Source: an uncultured Neisseriaceae bacterium (GTDB lineage Bacteria > Pseudomonadota > Gammaproteobacteria > Burkholderiales > Neisseriaceae). Taken from it: a stretch of 64,000 nucleotides of DNA. Under the pieces are notes generated by a model, which searched no databases, was not told where the DNA came from, and worked only from the letters and a program-made list of their open reading frames with translations. Both the position numbers and the translations under genes were made by a program. The stretch lies in NCBI GenBank assembly GCA_946481965.1, contig CAMLPN010000005.1, positions 301 through 64,300 of the forward strand, in the 5' to 3' direction. This document shows positions 39,010-45,056 of the stretch, in pieces (position 1 is the first letter of the stretch; every line of letters begins with the position of its first letter).

Positions 39010-39753
39010 TTAAGGCATAAACATGCCACCATTCACATGCAAAGTTTGTCCGGTGATATATTTAGCTTCGTTACTGGCCAAAAACAACACCGCCGCAGCT
39101 ATATCTTCCGGAGTACCAAAGTGATTCAAGGCAGTTTGTGCCGAAAAATAATCACGCTGTTCCTGTGGTAAGGCAAGGGTCATATCGGTTTCAATAAAGC
39201 CAGGCGCAACACAATTGACTGTTATACCTCGGCTACCGACTTCGCGCGCAAGAGATTTTGTAAAACCGATCAAACCTGCTTTAGCAGCAGCATAGTTAGT
39301 TTGGCCTGCATTACCGATACAGCCAACTACTGATGTAATATTGATGATACGACCAGAACGCGCTTTCATCATGCTGCGCGTCACCGCTTTACAGGCACGA
39401 AAAGCAGATTTCAGATTAATTTCCATAATCTCATCCCATTCTGACTCTTTCATGCGCATCAGTAAATTATCACGGGTAATGCCGGCATTGTTTATCAGAA
39501 TAGCAATATTGCCAATTTCACTTTCAATCTCGCTAACCAGATTCTCGATACTGCTTTCTTCAGCAATCCGTAGTTCGCGCCCTTCACCATCAAATTCAGC
39601 TAAAGCCTCATTGATAGCATTCACGCCATTGGCAGATGTGGCAGTACCAATAACTTTAGCCCCTTTCTCAGCCAATACTCTGGCAATAGCAGCCCCAATA
39701 CCACGTGTTGCACCTGTTACCAGCGCTACTTTACCGCTTAAATTTTGATTCAT
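39010..39753 (-). CDS. fabG: 3-oxoacyl-ACP reductase
   Basis: TGATRGIG, NNAGITRDNL, YAAAK, GQTLHVNGG. Confidence 0.96.
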   Translation of the reverse strand: MNQNLSGKVALVTGATRGIGAAIARVLAEKGAKVIGTATSANGVNAINEALAEFDGEGRELRIAEESSIENLVSEIESEIGNIAILINNAGITRDNLLMRMKESEWDEIMEINLKSAFRACKAVTRSMMKARSGRIINITSVVGCIGNAGQTNYAAAKAGLIGFTKSLAREVGSRGITVNCVAPGFIETDMTLALPQEQRDYFSAQTALNHFGTPEDIAAAVLFLASNEAKYITGQTLHVNGGMFMP

Positions 39754-39764
39754 TATTTTTTCCT

Positions 39765-40709
39765 CTAATTAACTGGATGGCTAGTAATGAAATTTTCCAC
39801 ACTTTCCAAACTGGTTAGTGCAGCACAAACCGTGCTTTTATCAATTCTTTTTGCCAGACCAGCCAGTACTTTGCCCGGTCCACACTCACCATAGTCTGTT
39901 ATGCCTTCTTTAACCAATTTTTCAACAGTTTCGGTCCAACGTACTGGAGAATAAAGCTGTTGTACTAATGCATTTTTAATACCATCCACATCATCATGTA
40001 CAGACACATCTACGTTATGCAATACGGTAATTTGAGGTGCATTCACCTTCACATTGACTAAGGCTTGATTAAGTTGTTCAGCAGCTGGCTTCATTAAACG
40101 ACAATGCGACGGCACTGATACTGGTAAAAGTAAAGCTCGTTTAGCGCCGGCTATTTTGGCCAATTCGCAAGCCCGGTTAATGGCGTCTGTACTGCCAGCA
40201 ATTACTATTTGTCCAGGAGAATTGTAGTTTACTGCCTCAGCTACTGCTCCGGTCAGTTCCTGTTCTGCCTCAGCACAAACTTGTCGCACTATTTGGTCAT
40301 CTAAACCTAATATAGCAGCCATAGCACCTTGACCCTGAGGCACAGCATTTTGCATTAATTGAGCACGCAATCGTACCAGTTTAACTGCATCGGTAAAGTC
40401 CAGACTCTCTGCAGCTACCAAAGCAGTATATTCACCCAAACTATGACCCGCAACAACTGACGGCGCTTGTCCATTCAATTGCTGATATACCCGCCAAACA
40501 GCTACTCCTGCTGTTAACATAAGTGGCTGGGTATTAACGGTTTCATTCAATGATGCAGCATCATCACCATTCATTAATGCCCATAAATCCTGATTTAATG
40601 CACTAGATGCTTGCTCAAATGTTTGTTTGACGATATCCATATCGTTAAAGCCAGACATCATATTGAGACTTTGTGCCCCCTGCCCGGGGAAAAAGAAAGC
40701 TATACTCAT
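39765..40709 (-). CDS. fabD: Malonyl-CoA-ACP transacylase
   Basis: FPGQGAQ, GHSLGEY, NYNSPGQ, VPSHC. Confidence 0.96.
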   Translation of the reverse strand: MSIAFFFPGQGAQSLNMMSGFNDMDIVKQTFEQASSALNQDLWALMNGDDAASLNETVNTQPLMLTAGVAVWRVYQQLNGQAPSVVAGHSLGEYTALVAAESLDFTDAVKLVRLRAQLMQNAVPQGQGAMAAILGLDDQIVRQVCAEAEQELTGAVAEAVNYNSPGQIVIAGSTDAINRACELAKIAGAKRALLLPVSVPSHCRLMKPAAEQLNQALVNVKVNAPQITVLHNVDVSVHDDVDGIKNALVQQLYSPVRWTETVEKLVKEGITDYGECGPGKVLAGLAKRIDKSTVCAALTSLESVENFITSHPVN

Positions 40710-41092
40710 GATTTTCCTTGAATTAGAAAATATGCTAAATGATTATTGAATATTAGTTGATTATATTATAACTGATGACTTTTTTTTACTTATGCAAAAT
40801 ACCAAATAAAAACCATAAAATCTTTAATCTGAATATTTTAATGTCCATTGCTACTTGGATTTACTATCACTAATTTAGGCTAAGCCCAACGATTTTTCAA
40901 AATGAGCTTTTTAGTTAGCAGAATAATGATTTTCTAACTTAACAATAATATTCGATATTAATATTATGTTGTTCTCATGATAAATAATTATCTTGATTTG
41001 TCGGAAAATTAGAACATTTTTCTGCCATGACAACGTTGTTTTACTGTTGGGTTAGCTACCCTCTGATTAAGCCTAACTAGTTAATGAATAAA

Positions 41093-41446
41093 TTATTTTT
41101 CAATAAATGGCTCATATTTAAATTCAATATTAATGGTAGCTTTTTCAATATCGACAGTAACAACACAGCCTACCCACGCTGTTAATCCATTAGTTAAGTT
41201 ATTATCAATACAATATTTTCTTAATTCCACTAAACAATTTAACATATCATAATTGGCTCTAGCGCCTCCAAGAAATTGTTTAATATCATTTGATTCATTT
41301 ATGTAATCAAATTGGCACTGACAATGATCCCCTTCCTGAGATAACTCTGCTTTCATTATAATTATTTTTGCCCTATCAGGAGCTATATTAAATAATATTT
41401 GCCCAATGTCATTATTTAATTGATCATAAGTTTTCGACATTATCAT
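41093..41446 (-). CDS. Putative immunity protein (YezG/DUF600-like), intact
   Basis: L..DIGQIL, LVELRKY, W.GCVVTVD...INIEFKY; lies downstream of the toxin remnant and a paralog. Confidence 0.7.
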   Translation of the reverse strand: MIMSKTYDQLNNDIGQILFNIAPDRAKIIIMKAELSQEGDHCQCQFDYINESNDIKQFLGGARANYDMLNCLVELRKYCIDNNLTNGLTAWVGCVVTVDIEKATINIEFKYEPFIEK

Positions 41447-41472
41447 TCACTTAATTTATTTAAATATTATTA

Positions 41473-41819
41473 TTAATCTAAAATTAATGATTTATATTTA
41501 AATTTAACATTAATCTTAACGTTTTCAATATCGAGTGTAACAATACAAGCTGTCCAAATAGGATTACCATGAGCTAAATTATTATCGATAAAATACTGTC
41601 TTAATTTTACCAAAACTTCTCTTGGATTTGTTGTTGCCCTATCTAAGGTTCATACTCACTTTTTTTCTTATCAATTGTTATATAATTAAATTCTTATTCG
41701 CAAACATCACCTTCTGACCATAGATTGGCTATCTTAATAATAGTTTTAGCATCTTCAGGATCAGAAGCTGTCAAAACTTGCCCTAATCGGTTATATAAAC
41801 CTAGATTATCATTTTGCAT
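41473..41819 (-). pseudogene. Cognate immunity gene of the toxin, disrupted paralog of 41093-41446
   Basis: MQNDNLGLYNRLGQVLTASDPEDAKTII...CE* (TAA 41694-41696), frameshift near 41648, then LVKLRQYFIDNNLAHGNPIWTACIVTLDIENVKINVKFKY; ATG is 2 nt after the toxin stop. Confidence 0.82.
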
Positions 41820-41821
41820 TT

Positions 41822-42651
41822 TTATTTCCATGCAGGGTCATTTTCGAAATCAAAATATTTCGTTTTACTATCAATATATTTAACTTTAAAAACTATTTGG
41901 TCTTAGACTCGTTCTTTTATATAAATGCTCTATCCTAACATTGACCGTTTTCCCTTCTTGCAAGGCTTTAGCCCATGTATTTCTTTCTGTTTCCCTACAC
42001 CACGATTAAGGTTGGCATGCATTAGCAATATGTTAATTTACCAAATCCATTTAGTATTAAAGTTATTAAATGAACACCTTCGTCGCCTGTATTACCTTAT
42101 TTCCCTACTTTCGATTGTTGGTAAGTATTTCTGTCTAATGCATCAAGCTTAAGAGTCGCCCCAACCTTTTTTATTCAACCTAAGTAGTCAATATGATATG
42201 TTCTATTAACAACTACAATATACATTTTATTGGGTTTAGGATTATTAAGTTCTTTATTCCAATTGTCTTTGCTAGCTGATTCAGCTTCATTAGTTACAGT
42301 TTCAAGCTTATAGTGGGCTATTGTTTTAACGTCTGACACCATCCATTTAATTCTTAGGTATTTTAATGCTCGTAACGAATGAGAAAAAAATTTAACAAGC
42401 AAACCAACCAATAACCCTTCTAAAACATTCTTTAAATGACCTTCAGCAGCGCTATCATTAGGATAAGCTTGTGAATACTCTGTAACTGGATGTTGTAGTT
42501 CTTTGTAAGATTGGACTAAATTTACTAGTCGTTCTTGATGAGGGGAAAACCGAAAAATCAGCGACACCGCCAGCAACCATGTTTGACTCAGCTTAGCCAT
42601 TTTCAGTATAGGATTAATAAATTTGAGCAATTTAAATACTGGAATAAAACC
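41822..42651 (-). pseudogene. Polymorphic toxin C-terminal region with a DNA/RNA non-specific endonuclease domain (Endonuclea_NS_2-like), multiply disrupted
   Basis: Reconstructed across 2 stops and about 3 frameshifts: YHIDYLG*IKKVGATLKLDALDRNTYQQSKVGK*GNTGDEGVHLI..ILNG../NILLMHANLNRG/ERNTWAKALQEGKTVNVRI..Y..TSLRPNSF/KVKYIDSKTKYFDFENDPAWK*. Confidence 0.85.
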
Positions 42652-42991
42652 AATATGATAATTTGATTAATATTTAATAATGAAATACTTAAATAACTGT
42701 TACAATTAATTAAGCAACAATCACTCTTTCATTAAATCATTAATATATAAAAAACTGCTTATTGGTCATATCTGAATCCACAGCCACATCATCTGCATTT
42801 AGGCTATACTCAGACTTGCTAATTATTGCAGACAAACGTAGCGCAATTATTCCACTTGAACATAGCTCAATTTAGTAACTAGCAATTAAACCTTATTACC
42901 AAAAATAAATATAATATTGTTATTTAAGGCTATGTAGCAGATTTTAATAAATATCGTTGTAACAATTTTTTATCATATTTATTTAAATAAA

Positions 42992-43954
42992 TTAATATTT
43001 AACAGTTACAGCACCCCATGCAAAGCCACCACCAATACCTTCTAGTAATAATGTTTGGCCACGCTGAATACGACCAGATTTAATCCCCTGGTCTAATGCC
43101 AAAGGAATGGATGCAGCTGAGGTATTACCTTGTTCAGCTAAGGTCACTATTACTTTATCCATAGGCACTTTAAGATGACGGGCAGTAGATTCTATGATAC
43201 GTAAATTGGCTTGATGCGGAATGATCCAGTCTATATCAGTAGAGCCTAATCCTGATTTCTCTATTACTTCCAGAGCAATATTAGCCAAAGCTTTAACAGC
43301 AAATTTGTAAACTGCTTGTCCATCCATATACAGATATGGCGAACCCTCAATCTGCCCTGCAGCTATTTTCCCGGGGGTTTGTAGTATATGACTATAAGCA
43401 CCATCAGCCCGCAATTCAGCATGCAAAATGCCACCTTCTTGATTTGAAGCACCCAGTATCACTGCACCAGCGCCGTCTCCAAATAATACACAGGTACGAC
43501 GATCATTCCAGTCCAGCAAACGGCTGAATGTTTCGGCACCTATGATTAGAGCTTTAGTAGCCATGCCGCTTTTGATATAAGCATTAGCTGTGGCCAGAGC
43601 ATACATAAAACCTGCACATACTGCCTGCACATCAAATGCCGGACAACCAGCGATACCGAGCTTGTTTTGAACGATACAGGCTGTTGCCGGAAAGGTCATA
43701 TCTGGGGTAGAAGTGGCAACAATAATCAGGTCAATATCTGTTGCTACAATACCGGCATCCGCTAAGGCCGCCTGTGCCGCTTTTACTGCCAAATCACTAG
43801 TTTGCTCATTTTCAGCAGCAATATGACGCGCCTTAATACCTGTTCGAGATGTAATCCACTCATCCGATGTGTCAACAATTTTACTTAAATCATCGTTGCT
43901 CATACGGCGCATTGGCAAATAACTGCCAGTACCAAGAATATGGGCATTTAGCAT
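42992..43954 (-). CDS. fabH: 3-oxoacyl-ACP synthase III
   Basis: [31 protein letters not shown]. Confidence 0.97.
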
Positions 43955-44030: not shown

Positions 44031-45056
44031 TCATTGTTCGGGCGAAGACAATTGCTCAGCGACACCCGCTTGAATTTTGGTAATTGAGTCTGCTTTAATC
44101 GCTTTATAAGCTTCCTGCAAAGCAAAACTGAAACCCGTAGCATCTGTACCACCGTGACTTTTCACTACCACGCCTCGCAAACCCAGAAAAATAGCTCCGT
44201 TAAAGCGACGTGGATCAAGACGTCGTTTAAAACTTTTGAATACCGGCAAAGCAATCAATGCGGTTAATTTATTAAACCAACTGCGGGTAAACTCTTCTTT
44301 AATGACTGCTCCAAAAAATTTCACTGCACCTTCAATACTTTTAAGCATGGCATTGCCGGTAAAACCGTCGACAACCAATACATCTACTTCAGCGGTAAAA
44401 ATAGCATTACCTTCGACATTACCCACAAAATTGAGCTTACTGTCACGCAAGAGCTGATGTGCCTCTTTTGCGGCTGCATTGCCTTTGATATCTTCGGTAC
44501 CAACATTTAATAAACCTACTCGTGGCTGAGTATTCTCTGGCATCAAGGAAGAAACTAACTGACTTCCAGCAACTGCAAACTGCAATAACTGTTCACCACT
44601 ACAATCAACATTTGCACCCAGATCCAATACCAGTGTCAGGTGATTATTATGAGCAGGCAGAAATTTAGCAATTGCCGGTCGATTAATACCGGGTATGGTT
44701 TTTAATACAAATCGTGCCGTTGCCATTAACGCGCCGGTATTACCTGCGGAGACAGCAGCCTGTGCATTACCTTCCTTGATCTGGTTGATGGCAACACGCA
44801 TAGAAGAATCCCGCTTATTTTTCAAAGCTGATGACGGTTCTTCATCCATATCAACTACTTCACTAGCCGGCTGAATGGTCACCCTACCTAAAGAAGCATT
44901 GCTTTTAGCCAGTGCAGCTTTGATAAGTACTTCATCCCCTACCAGAATCAGTGCTGCATCACTTTGTAGCTGTAAGAAATTCAACGCACCCTGAATGGTG
45001 ACATCCAGTCCGTAGTCGCCGCTCATTACATCAACGGCGATAGTTTTTAAGGTCAT
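44031..45056 (-). CDS. plsX: Phosphate acyltransferase PlsX
   Basis: IAVDVMSGDYG, SAGNTGA, LDLGAN, KSHG. Confidence 0.95.
   Translation of the reverse strand: MTLKTIAVDVMSGDYGLDVTIQGALNFLQLQSDAALILVGDEVLIKAALAKSNASLGRVTIQPASEVVDMDEEPSSALKNKRDSSMRVAINQIKEGNAQAAVSAGNTGALMATARFVLKTIPGINRPAIAKFLPAHNNHLTLVLDLGANVDCSGEQLLQFAVAGSQLVSSLMPENTQPRVGLLNVGTEDIKGNAAAKEAHQLLRDSKLNFVGNVEGNAIFTAEVDVLVVDGFTGNAMLKSIEGAVKFFGAVIKEEFTRSWFNKLTALIALPVFKSFKRRLDPRRFNGAIFLGLRGVVVKSHGGTDATGFSFALQEAYKAIKADSITKIQAGVAEQLSSPEQ

What the first reader, a model, noticed from the sequence alone, without database searches (positions are those of the whole stretch)
40710..42991. Hidden polymorphic nuclease toxin-immunity cassette inside the fatty-acid synthesis operon
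Sequence: 2.3 kb of AT-rich DNA splits fabH from fabD. Stitching minus-strand frames gives a toxin C-terminus with DEGVHLI...NG...N..LMHANLNRG...E.TWAKALQEGKTV.V.I...Y....RP.SF, followed 2 nt later by an immunity gene and then a second paralog, all co-oriented with fab. Established: this is the DxGGHLI/N-L-N His-Me-finger signature of Endonuclea_NS_2 toxins, which are normally followed by a translationally coupled immunity gene. No Rhs, PAAR, VgrG, CdiA or MafB delivery domain, integrase or transposase is visible. Inference: a toxin module was inserted in an essential operon, where immunity genes get constitutive read-through expression.
Basis: partly seen in the sequence, partly recalled or inferred. 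Interest (0 to 1): 0.7.

Follow-up and report, generated by a model that had tools for sequence, protein, structure and literature searches.

The report
Dead nuclease toxin, surviving immunity gene
A bee-gut Snodgrassella carries, between two fatty-acid synthesis genes, a 1.6 kb fragment taken from neighbouring Gilliamella-type bacteria: a wrecked DNase toxin gene, its wrecked antidote gene, and a second antidote gene that is still intact and probably protects against the neighbours' toxin.

Summary
Between fabH (42992-43954) and fabD (39765-40709) lie 2282 bp of AT-rich DNA. On the fab strand it carries a PF13930 nuclease remnant and two YezG/EsaG-type immunity paralogs.

The toxin is not a hidden working gene. 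It lacks its first ~280 codons and a start codon, and has two stop codons and six frameshifting indels. The adjacent immunity gene is also broken. Only the second immunity gene (41093-41446, 117 aa) is intact. It keeps all 17 family-invariant residues and has dN/dS of 0.2-0.46 among strains.

The acquired block is 41044-42655. It is 80-85% identical in DNA to a Gilliamella toxin-immunity island and is missing from the closest Snodgrassella species. In most Snodgrassella species this slot holds an unrelated 288-aa gene. At least two cassette variants exist among strains.

The donor toxins are a 515-578-aa Orbaceae polymorphic toxin family. Its carrier region shares a domain with "internal virion protein D" of T7-like phages.

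Best reading: an orphan immunity gene plus toxin debris, captured from Orbaceae. This kind of event is already described for Rhs modules in bee-gut bacteria.

First-stage notes on this same window had already flagged both the dead/intact immunity pair and the phage-like module.

The parts
42992..43954 (-). fabH (320 aa), upstream neighbour of the interval
   Evidence: ORF. It is 80-99.7% identical to the FabH orthologues next to the same interval in the other Snodgrassella species.
42656..42991 (.). AT-rich (24% GC), ORF-less left flank. Shared with the closest species G005, so it is not part of the acquired cassette.
   Evidence: 81% identical to G005 interval positions 1-312. GC. No similarity to the Gilliamella islands.
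41832..42655 (-). Pseudogene: the 3' half (codons ~283-569) of an Orbaceae polymorphic nuclease toxin. About 42262-42655 is the remnant of the 'internal virion protein D'-like carrier domain. About 41850-42279 is the remnant of the Endonuclea_NS_2 domain.
   Evidence: 67-69% amino-acid identity to residues 281-496 of an intact 569-aa Gilliamella toxin, and 80% DNA identity. PF13930 hits. Lesions: stops at 42175-42177 (TGA) and 42097-42099 (TAA); frameshifting indels near 42581, 42545, 42040, 41982, 41892 and 41866; an in-frame 15-nt deletion near 42287.
41473..41831 (-). imm1: pseudogene of a YezG/DUF600-like immunity gene, probably cognate to the toxin remnant
   Evidence: Two ORF pieces in different frames plus an internal stop. 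45-48% identical to imm2. The C-terminal piece hits PF04634 at E 0.033. Three family-invariant residues are substituted (T85A, N86H, G93A in imm2 numbering).
41093..41446 (-). imm2: intact 117-aa YezG/EsaG-like orphan immunity gene
   Evidence: Intact ORF. 77% identical to a Gilliamella protein and 75% to Ca. Schmidhempelia bombi. 12 of 19 family members hit PF04634. The AF2 model (pLDDT 91) matches DUF600 BH3703 and S. aureus EsaG with probability 1.0 and TM 0.68-0.72. dN/dS 0.22-0.46 among alleles at this Snodgrassella locus.
41044..41092 (.). 3' tail of the acquired DNA, downstream of imm2
   Evidence: DNA homology to the Gilliamella island runs to about 48 bp past the immunity stop codon. 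Homology to G005 resumes at about 41043.
40710..41043 (.). AT-rich (24% GC) right flank, shared with G005. In G000 it has lost about 230 bp that other cassette-bearing strains retain.
   Evidence: 87% identical to G005 interval positions 531-864. The extra 230 bp in L067 and L068 partly match G005. The last ~75 bp before fabD are conserved in G004, G005 and G000.
39765..40709 (-). fabD (314 aa), followed by fabG (39010-39753)

Best explanation
The fabH-fabD interval of this Snodgrassella genome holds a 1.6 kb piece of an Orbaceae (Gilliamella-type) toxin-immunity island, acquired by horizontal transfer.

What the piece contains:
- The 3' half of a polymorphic nuclease toxin gene with an Endonuclea_NS_2 (His-Me finger) C-terminal domain. 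It has no start codon and lacks the first ~280 codons of the carrier region. It is now a pseudogene.
- The adjacent YezG/EsaG-type immunity gene, also a pseudogene.
- A second immunity paralog, which is intact and evolving under constraint.

Proposed mechanism: imm2 is an orphan immunity protein that binds and blocks a NucA/EsaD-type DNase delivered by co-resident Orbaceae, or by other Snodgrassella carrying the same C-terminal domain on CdiA. That would protect the cell without it making the toxin. The toxin and imm1 remnants are hitch-hiking debris.

What is shown: the anatomy, the foreign origin, the decay of the toxin and imm1, the fold and family of imm2, and polymorphism of the slot.

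What is inferred: that imm2 is expressed (from read-through out of plsX-fabH or from a local promoter), that it protects the cell, and which toxin variant it neutralises.
For: Anatomy and family:
- PF13930 hits in two frames.
- 67-69% identity over 215 residues to intact 565-578-aa toxins of Gilliamella, Frischella and Orbus.
- imm2's fold matches DUF600 and EsaG, including the EsaD-EsaG complex 8guo. 12 of 19 homologues hit PF04634.
- Zhang et al. 2012 (PMC3482391) list DUF600 as the immunity family primarily associated with Tox-NucA.

Foreign origin:
- The cassette is at 31% GC, against 43-44% for the fab genes.
- It is 80% (toxin) and 85% (imm2 plus 48 bp) identical in DNA to Gilliamella scaffolds, and that homology ends exactly where homology to the cassette-free relative G005 resumes.
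- Among the 12 other Snodgrassella species genomes, none matched the toxin's carrier region. Only S. gandavensis matched the nuclease domain strongly, as a CdiA-CT orphan.
- The hemA gene beside the donor island is only ~42% identical to Neisseriaceae hemA. Cluster members are named Gilliamella.

Decay:
- 2 stops and 6 frameshifting indels in the toxin, shared with strain contig L067.
- imm1 has 1 stop and 1 frameshift, and 3 lost invariant residues.

Constraint on imm2:
- It has no lesions, where the lesion density of its neighbours predicts ~3 (Poisson P = 0.05).
- It retains all 17 invariant residues.
- It is intact in five independent assemblies, with dN/dS 0-0.46.

Precedent: orphan toxin/immunity exchange among bee-gut bacteria is documented for Rhs modules (PMC8125069).
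Against: - There are no expression data.
- Promoter-like and terminator-like sites are no more frequent than in shuffled sequence, so neither read-through nor a dedicated promoter is shown.
- The selection evidence is modest. The Poisson P is only 0.05, the within-Snodgrassella substitution counts are small (6 synonymous, 6 non-synonymous), and the pairwise comparisons are not independent.
- imm2 itself does not reach any Pfam threshold.
- The toxin that imm2 would neutralise is not identified. Adjacency differs between genomes: in Ca. Schmidhempelia and in contig L103 an imm2-type gene directly follows a toxin C-terminus, whereas here imm1 does.
- How the donor toxin family is delivered is unknown, so it is not shown that Snodgrassella is ever a target.
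Confidence: 0.68

Rival explanations
1. The whole cassette, imm2 included, is non-functional debris of one old transfer. On this view imm2 is intact only because it is short and has not yet been hit.
For: - Everything around it is decayed.
- P(no lesion by chance) is about 0.05, which is not negligible.
- There is no expression evidence.
- G000 shows continuing erosion of the locus, with a 230-bp secondary deletion.
Against: - imm2 is intact in five assemblies that differ by up to 9% in DNA. Their dN/dS is 0-0.46, and the family-invariant residues are all retained in the window copy, while imm1 lost three of them.
- The imm2 AF2 model is confident and native-like.
Confidence: 0.24
2. One reading: a functional, hidden toxin-immunity module lodged in an essential operon. 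The toxin would be made by frame-stitching or recoding, and the module would act as an addiction or competition system.
For: - Toxin and immunity are co-oriented with fab.
- The His-Me finger motif pieces are still recognisable.
Against: - There is no start codon, and the first ~280 codons of the carrier region are missing.
- Two nonsense codons and six frameshifting indels are spread over 800 nt.
- No other copy of the carrier or the toxin exists in the genome to recombine with.
- The cognate-position immunity gene is dead.
Confidence: 0.02
3. The AT-rich insert is retained for a cis effect on the fab genes, for example by supplying or insulating a promoter for fabD-fabG. The coding content would then be irrelevant.
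For: - fabD-fabG must be transcribed across or from within 2.3 kb of foreign DNA.
- The last ~75 bp before fabD are conserved among G000, G004 and G005.
- AT-rich DNA offers many -10-like sites.
Against: - G005 manages with 864 bp and no cassette.
- The conserved 75 bp lie outside the cassette.
- This idea does not explain codon-level constraint on imm2.
Confidence: 0.06

Closest known systems
EsaD-EsaG (Staphylococcus aureus T7SS) and YeeF-YezG (Bacillus subtilis LXG toxin): NucA/Endonuclea_NS_2 DNases with DUF600 immunity
   Same: The toxin domain family is the same (PF13930). The immunity fold is the same: imm2's model matches EsaG and the EsaD-EsaG complex 8guo with probability 1.0. The immunity gene lies immediately downstream, and immunity paralogs sit in tandem.
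   Different: The hosts here are Gram-negative and there is no LXG/WXG T7SS carrier. The immunity proteins are shorter (111-136 aa against ~150-170) and only marginally match PF04634. In the window the toxin is a truncated pseudogene.
Orphan Rhs toxin/immunity modules and orphan immunity genes of bee-gut bacteria (Steele and Moran 2021, PMC8125069), and the acquired interbacterial defence islands of Bacteroidales cited there
   Same: A C-terminal toxin fragment without its secretion domain, plus linked immunity genes. The module moves between co-resident gut species, and the proposed role is defensive.
   Different: This is not an Rhs module. The carrier belongs to a different, unannotated Orbaceae toxin family. 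The module sits alone between fabH and fabD rather than in an array behind a full-length toxin or in a recombinase-associated island. The toxin part is beyond recombinational rescue in this genome.
Orphan cdiA-CT/cdiI modules
   Same: The closest intact relative inside the genus is a CdiA-CT orphan in S. gandavensis. It has the same nuclease domain (61% identity to the Gilliamella toxin's C-terminal domain) and an immunity protein 43% identical to imm2. The same C-terminal domain plus immunity pair is fused to CdiA-like proteins in Leclercia, Providencia, Proteus and Photorhabdus.
   Different: The window's pre-toxin region has no VENN motif and no similarity to the CdiA entry region.
MuF polymorphic toxins (phage-capsid-associated carrier; Zhang et al. 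2012, PMC3482391)
   Same: A carrier region homologous to a phage virion protein is fused to swappable C-terminal toxins with immunity genes. One Orbus copy lies in an island with an integrase, a small terminase-like gene and a primase.
   Different: The shared domain is 'internal virion protein D' (phrog_6651) of T7-like podoviruses, not MuF. Most copies are plain chromosomal. Distant homologues sit behind a DUF4123 T6SS adaptor, which points to T6SS rather than capsid delivery.

Membership tests
Endonuclea_NS_2 / Tox-NucA toxin domain (PF13930) | Profile match above the gathering score | tested here: met
   N-terminal piece 28 bits against a cut-off of 27 (E 2.8e-6). C-terminal piece 16 bits in another frame. 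Intact homologues score E 5e-37 and 2e-41.
Endonuclea_NS_2 / Tox-NucA toxin domain (PF13930) | One continuous reading frame carrying the His-Me finger (D-x-G-G-H-L ... N ... N) so that an enzyme can be made | tested here: not met
   The motif pieces DEGVHLI and NLNRG lie in different frames. There are 2 stops and 6 frameshifting indels, and no start codon. It is a pseudogene derived from a family member, not a functional member.
YezG-like / DUF600 immunity (PF04634) | Profile match | tested here: inconclusive
   imm2 itself has no hit at E <= 0.05. However, 12 of 19 homologues that are 40-95% identical to it do hit, with best E 8.9e-7. The C-terminal piece of imm1 scores E 0.033.
YezG-like / DUF600 immunity (PF04634) | DUF600/EsaG fold | tested here: met
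   AF2 pLDDT 91 and pTM 0.82. Foldseek hits 2ia1, 3i0t (BH3703, DUF600) and 8gup, 8guo (EsaG) at E ~1e-5, probability 1.0 and TMq 0.67-0.72. The next hit is at E 0.14.
YezG-like / DUF600 immunity (PF04634) | Encoded directly downstream of a NucA-type toxin | tested here: met
   True in the window and in Gilliamella, Frischella, Orbus, Snodgrassella gandavensis, Leclercia, Providencia and Photorhabdus.
YezG-like / DUF600 immunity (PF04634) | Neutralises its cognate nuclease | not testable with these tools
   Needs co-expression or binding assays.
Orbaceae 515-578-aa polymorphic toxin family (unnamed) | Shared carrier region followed by a variable C-terminal toxin and an immunity gene | tested here: met
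   Window 42666-42037 matches residues 281-496 at 67-69% identity. Family members carry PF13930, Fic, Tox-REase-3, CdiA-CT, ParB or deamidase C-termini. The window has only the last ~140 residues of the carrier.
CdiA-CT/CdiI orphan | VENN (or equivalent) pre-toxin junction and a CdiA-type entry region upstream of the toxin domain | tested here: not met
   No similarity to the S. gandavensis CdiA VENN or entry region in any frame.
Rhs / PAAR / VgrG / MafB-linked toxin | The corresponding N-terminal or core domains in the interval | tested here: not met
   No such Pfam hit in the three minus-strand (fab-strand) frames or in the 151-aa pre-toxin ORF. None in the intact 569-aa homologue either.
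Orphan (acquired) immunity gene | Intact immunity gene, no functional cognate toxin in the genome, foreign origin | tested here: met
   This is the only PF13930 match in the assembly, and it is broken. There is no second copy of the carrier or of the immunity gene. DNA identity to Gilliamella is 80-85%. The assembly is 94% complete, so absence elsewhere is not absolute.

The most novel reading that the evidence does not exclude
The fabH-fabD junction of one Snodgrassella lineage may be a recombining slot for immunity genes captured from Orbaceae. Three states or variants were seen: empty; 3' toxin half + imm1 + imm2; and C-terminal fragment + imm2.

These genes would defend against an undescribed Orbaceae polymorphic toxin family. 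Its carrier contains a domain shared with internal virion (ejection) protein D of T7-like phages. Delivery would be either as T6SS cargo (DUF4123 adaptors flank distant homologues) or through phage or satellite particles.
Probability: 0.3. Interest if true: 0.62.

Novelty: new member of a known kind. Interest (0 to 1): 0.42.

Why it matters
Snodgrassella and Gilliamella live in contact in the bee ileum. A Gilliamella-derived immunity gene kept intact in Snodgrassella, while the linked toxin rots, is a concrete and testable case of cross-class acquired defence in a simple, experimentally tractable gut community.

It also points to an unannotated Orbaceae toxin family, with 92 homologues and at least six kinds of C-terminal toxin. 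The carrier domain of that family is shared with phage ejection proteins, and its delivery route is unknown.

The position between essential fab genes is a curiosity rather than a principle. That junction already hosts an accessory gene in most Snodgrassella species.

Tried and rejected
- **Active hidden toxin.** Rejected on the lesion count and the missing 5' half.
- **CdiA-CT orphan origin.** This was suggested by S. gandavensis. I rejected it for the window because its pre-toxin region matches the Orbaceae carrier, not CdiA.
- **Flanks or the G005 interval as remains of the 288-aa gene found in other species.** There was no tblastn or blastn signal beyond the last 75 bp.
- **Mobile-element signature.** No integrase or transposase, no bounding direct or inverted repeats, no tRNA-like or Rfam element.
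- **Expression test.** The promoter and terminator scans were uninformative: 17 found against 19 expected, and 3 against 2.4.
- **Profile search of the immunity family against PDB sequences.** It gave nothing. The fold search did.
- **AF2 model of the intact 569-aa homologue.** The model was poor (mean pLDDT 61, carrier domain below 50), so I ran no fold search on it.
- **NCBIfam.** No model for the toxin, the immunity protein or the 288-aa slot gene.
Full report
**1. What is in the interval**

The window is contig C5 of a 2.18 Mb, 79-contig assembly. On the minus strand lie plsX (44031-45056), fabH (42992-43954), a 2282-bp gap, fabD (39765-40709) and fabG (39010-39753). The gap has 24-33% GC, against 43-44% for the fab genes.

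I translated the three minus-strand frames with X at every stop and scanned them against Pfam. PF13930 (Endonuclea_NS_2) hit twice:
- profile positions 2-71 at 28 bits (cut-off 27, E 2.8e-6) in one frame;
- profile positions 92-125 at 16 bits in another frame.

The intervening 'LMHANLNRG' piece lies in the third frame.

Downstream are two paralogous small genes:
- 41473-41831, split over two frames and with an internal stop;
- 41093-41446, an intact 117-aa ORF.

**2. The toxin is a truncated, multiply broken pseudogene**

A homologue search with the intact small gene led to bee-gut metagenome scaffolds. In these, a 569-aa protein with a C-terminal PF13930 domain (E 5e-37) is followed by an array of immunity genes and short orphan C-terminal fragments.

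Window 42666-42037 matches residues 281-496 of that protein at 67-69% identity.

Aligning the DNA to the intact gene shows the following damage in the window copy:
- it starts at about codon 283, so it has no start codon and lacks the first ~280 codons of the carrier region;
- in-frame stops at 42175-42177 and 42097-42099;
- frameshifting indels near 42581 and 42545 (these two compensate each other), 42040, 41982, 41892 and 41866;
- an in-frame 15-nt deletion near 42287.

A metagenomic contig from another strain (L067, 98% identical) has the same lesions.

The assembly contains no other PF13930 match, no other copy of the carrier region and no other copy of the immunity gene. No toxin can be made here, and there is nothing to recombine with.

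**3. The immunity genes are YezG/EsaG-type**

imm2 itself misses every Pfam threshold. However, 12 of 19 homologues that are 40-95% identical to it hit PF04634 YezG-like, with best E 8.9e-7.

An AlphaFold2 model built on that alignment is confident (pLDDT 91, pTM 0.82). In the PDB it matches only two things:
- the DUF600 protein BH3703 (2ia1, 3i0t);
- S. aureus EsaG, including the EsaD-nuclease/EsaG complex 8guo.

These hits have probability 1.0, TMq 0.67-0.72 and E about 1e-5. The next hit is at E 0.14.

DUF600 is the immunity family that Zhang et al. 2012 associate primarily with Tox-NucA (PMC3482391).

imm1 is dead: it has a stop and a frameshift, and three of the 17 family-invariant residues are substituted. 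imm2 keeps all 17.

**4. The block is foreign and came from Orbaceae**

The genus is Snodgrassella. Genome G010, placed in the window's genus, has a contig identical to a named S. gandavensis LMG 30236 record.

The cassette's DNA is 80% (toxin part) and 85% (imm2 plus 48 bp) identical to the ~30% GC scaffolds. Members of the immunity protein's cluster are named Gilliamella apicola or Gilliamella spp.. The hemA gene on those scaffolds is only ~42% identical to Neisseriaceae hemA.

Other close immunity homologues are in Ca. Schmidhempelia bombi (75%), Orbus and an unnamed Orbaceae bacterium.

The closest Snodgrassella species (G005; FabH 99.7% identical) has an 864-bp, 24% GC, ORF-less interval. 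It shares 336 bp after fabH and 334 bp before fabD with the window, and lacks everything between. Homology to Gilliamella ends within a few bases of where homology to G005 resumes. The acquired block is therefore 41044-42655.

No repeats, integrase, transposase or RNA element marks the junctions.

**5. The slot is variable**

- In 10 of the 12 other Snodgrassella species, the fabH-fabD interval (924-1338 bp) is filled by a co-oriented gene of about 288 aa from an unknown family. It has no Pfam, NCBIfam or PDB hit.
- In other Neisseriaceae, fabH and fabD are about 100 bp apart where both were captured (two genomes, G021 and G029).
- The 288-aa gene was not found anywhere in G000 or G005.
- Among cassette-bearing strains, L067 and L068 keep 230 bp at the right junction that G000 has deleted.
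- A further contig (L103) has the same right flank (95-97% identical). Upstream of an imm2 allele, however, it carries an in-frame toxin C-terminus instead of imm1. That stretch is 90% identical to a Gilliamella orphan C-terminal fragment plus immunity unit.
- G000 and L067 differ by 0.6 substitutions per 100 nt in the toxin remnant, but by 3.9 per 100 nt in imm1 and imm2. This also suggests recombination within the immunity region.

**6. Is imm2 maintained?**

The toxin remnant and imm1 carry 10 disabling lesions in 1183 nt. At that density imm2 (354 nt) should carry about 3, and P(0) = 0.05.

Five alleles from this Snodgrassella locus are all intact. Pairwise dN/dS is 0-0.46: for example 6 synonymous and 6 non-synonymous changes between G000 and L067 (binomial P 0.015), and 0.31 between G000 and L103 (P 0.003). 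These pairs are not independent.

This favours constraint but does not prove it.

Consensus scans found no excess of promoters or terminators. In particular, there is no convincing terminator between fabH and imm2. Read-through is therefore possible but not shown.

The last ~75 bp before fabD are conserved across species and may hold fabD's own signals.

**7. The donor toxin family**

The carrier region defines a family of 92 detected homologues. They are mostly 515-578 aa and come from Frischella, Gilliamella and Orbus. One N-terminal region of ~420 aa is joined to different C-termini: Endonuclea_NS_2, Fic, Tox-REase-3, CdiA-CT, ParB and glutamine deamidase. That makes it a bona fide polymorphic toxin family, which NCBI names only by its C-terminus or as hypothetical.

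The part retained in the window (family residues ~283-420) is a conserved helical domain. It also occurs near the N-terminus of 1000-1500-aa proteins that match phrog_6651, 'internal virion protein'. By tblastn it matches genes annotated 'internal virion protein D' in T7-like Pelagibacter, Roseobacter and Desulfovibrio phages. This bears out the first-stage note e1-5274494.

Delivery of these toxins is unresolved:
- One Orbus copy lies in an island with an integrase, a gp3-like small terminase and a D5 primase.
- Gilliamella and Frischella copies are plain chromosomal.
- Rhodobacterales homologues (32% identity over 282 residues) sit directly behind a DUF4123 protein (E 3e-23), a known T6SS adaptor family.
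- An AF2 model of the full toxin was too poor to use.

The same nuclease domain plus immunity pair is also fused to CdiA-type carriers in S. gandavensis, Leclercia, Providencia, Proteus and Photorhabdus.

**8. Verdict**

The finding is real and correctly assigned to family. It is not a working toxin-immunity module hidden in an essential operon.

It is a horizontally acquired fragment of an Orbaceae toxin island that has decayed to one intact orphan immunity gene. It sits in a junction that already tolerated an accessory gene.

This kind of event, orphan toxin and immunity modules exchanged among bee-gut symbionts with a proposed defensive role, is already described for Rhs modules (PMC8125069). 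I therefore class it as a new member of a known kind and give it moderate interest.

The more novel lead is the uncharacterised Orbaceae carrier domain shared with phage ejection proteins.

Noticed in passing
L010:575-1502 and the equivalent intervals in L008, L009 and L011-L018: In 10 of the 12 other Snodgrassella species, a conserved co-oriented gene of ~288 aa ('...HLCWIDTDIGF...') sits between fabH and fabD. It has no Pfam, NCBIfam or PDB sequence match. It was not found anywhere in G000 or G005.
   Followed up: partly
L061:3829-5535 (Gilliamella scaffold); also L085:8283-9977, L097:10001-11554, L098:10001-11638 and L099:10001-11698: An unannotated Orbaceae polymorphic toxin family of 515-578 aa. 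Its carrier region contains a domain homologous to 'internal virion protein D' (phrog_6651) of T7-like phages. At least six different C-terminal toxin types are attached to it.
   Followed up: partly
L100:8944-12519 (Rhodobacterales-like metagenome contigs; also L101 and L102): A distant homologue of the carrier (525 aa) has a weak RelA_SpoT-like C-terminus. It is preceded by a DUF4123 T6SS adaptor and followed by a 161-aa gene and an HD_4 hydrolase. All of this lies inside a small element with an integrase and a cI-like repressor.
   Followed up: partly
L097:6608-20265 (Orbus wheelerorum): A toxin of this family lies in an island with an integrase, a gp3-like small terminase, pRha and a D5-type primase. 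This resembles a phage satellite.
   Followed up: no
L081:8237-10321 (Ca. Schmidhempelia bombi): The homologous toxin is also fragmented there, into ORFs of 246, 159 and 98 aa. The imm2-type immunity gene downstream is intact. This may be a second case of toxin decay with immunity retention.
   Followed up: no
L026 / L093 (S. gandavensis, 2.8 kb contig) and L058 (G010:C25): A CdiA locus with VENN junctions ('AVENNYLS') and an array of orphan cdiA-CT/cdiI modules. One of them has an intact PF13930 nuclease and a YezG-like CdiI.
   Followed up: partly
window 41473-41899 compared with 41832-42655, against L067: Strain divergence jumps sixfold at the toxin/imm1 boundary, from 0.6 to 3.9 differences per 100 nt. 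The imm2 allele in L103 looks mosaic, Gilliamella-like at the 5' end and G000-like at the 3' end. Together these suggest gene conversion or recombination in the immunity region.
   Followed up: partly
L027:3452-8268 (G008 chromosome): A typical Rhs C-terminal array, with the 'DPIGLAGG' core end followed by orphan toxin/immunity units. It is unrelated to the window's cassette.
   Followed up: no
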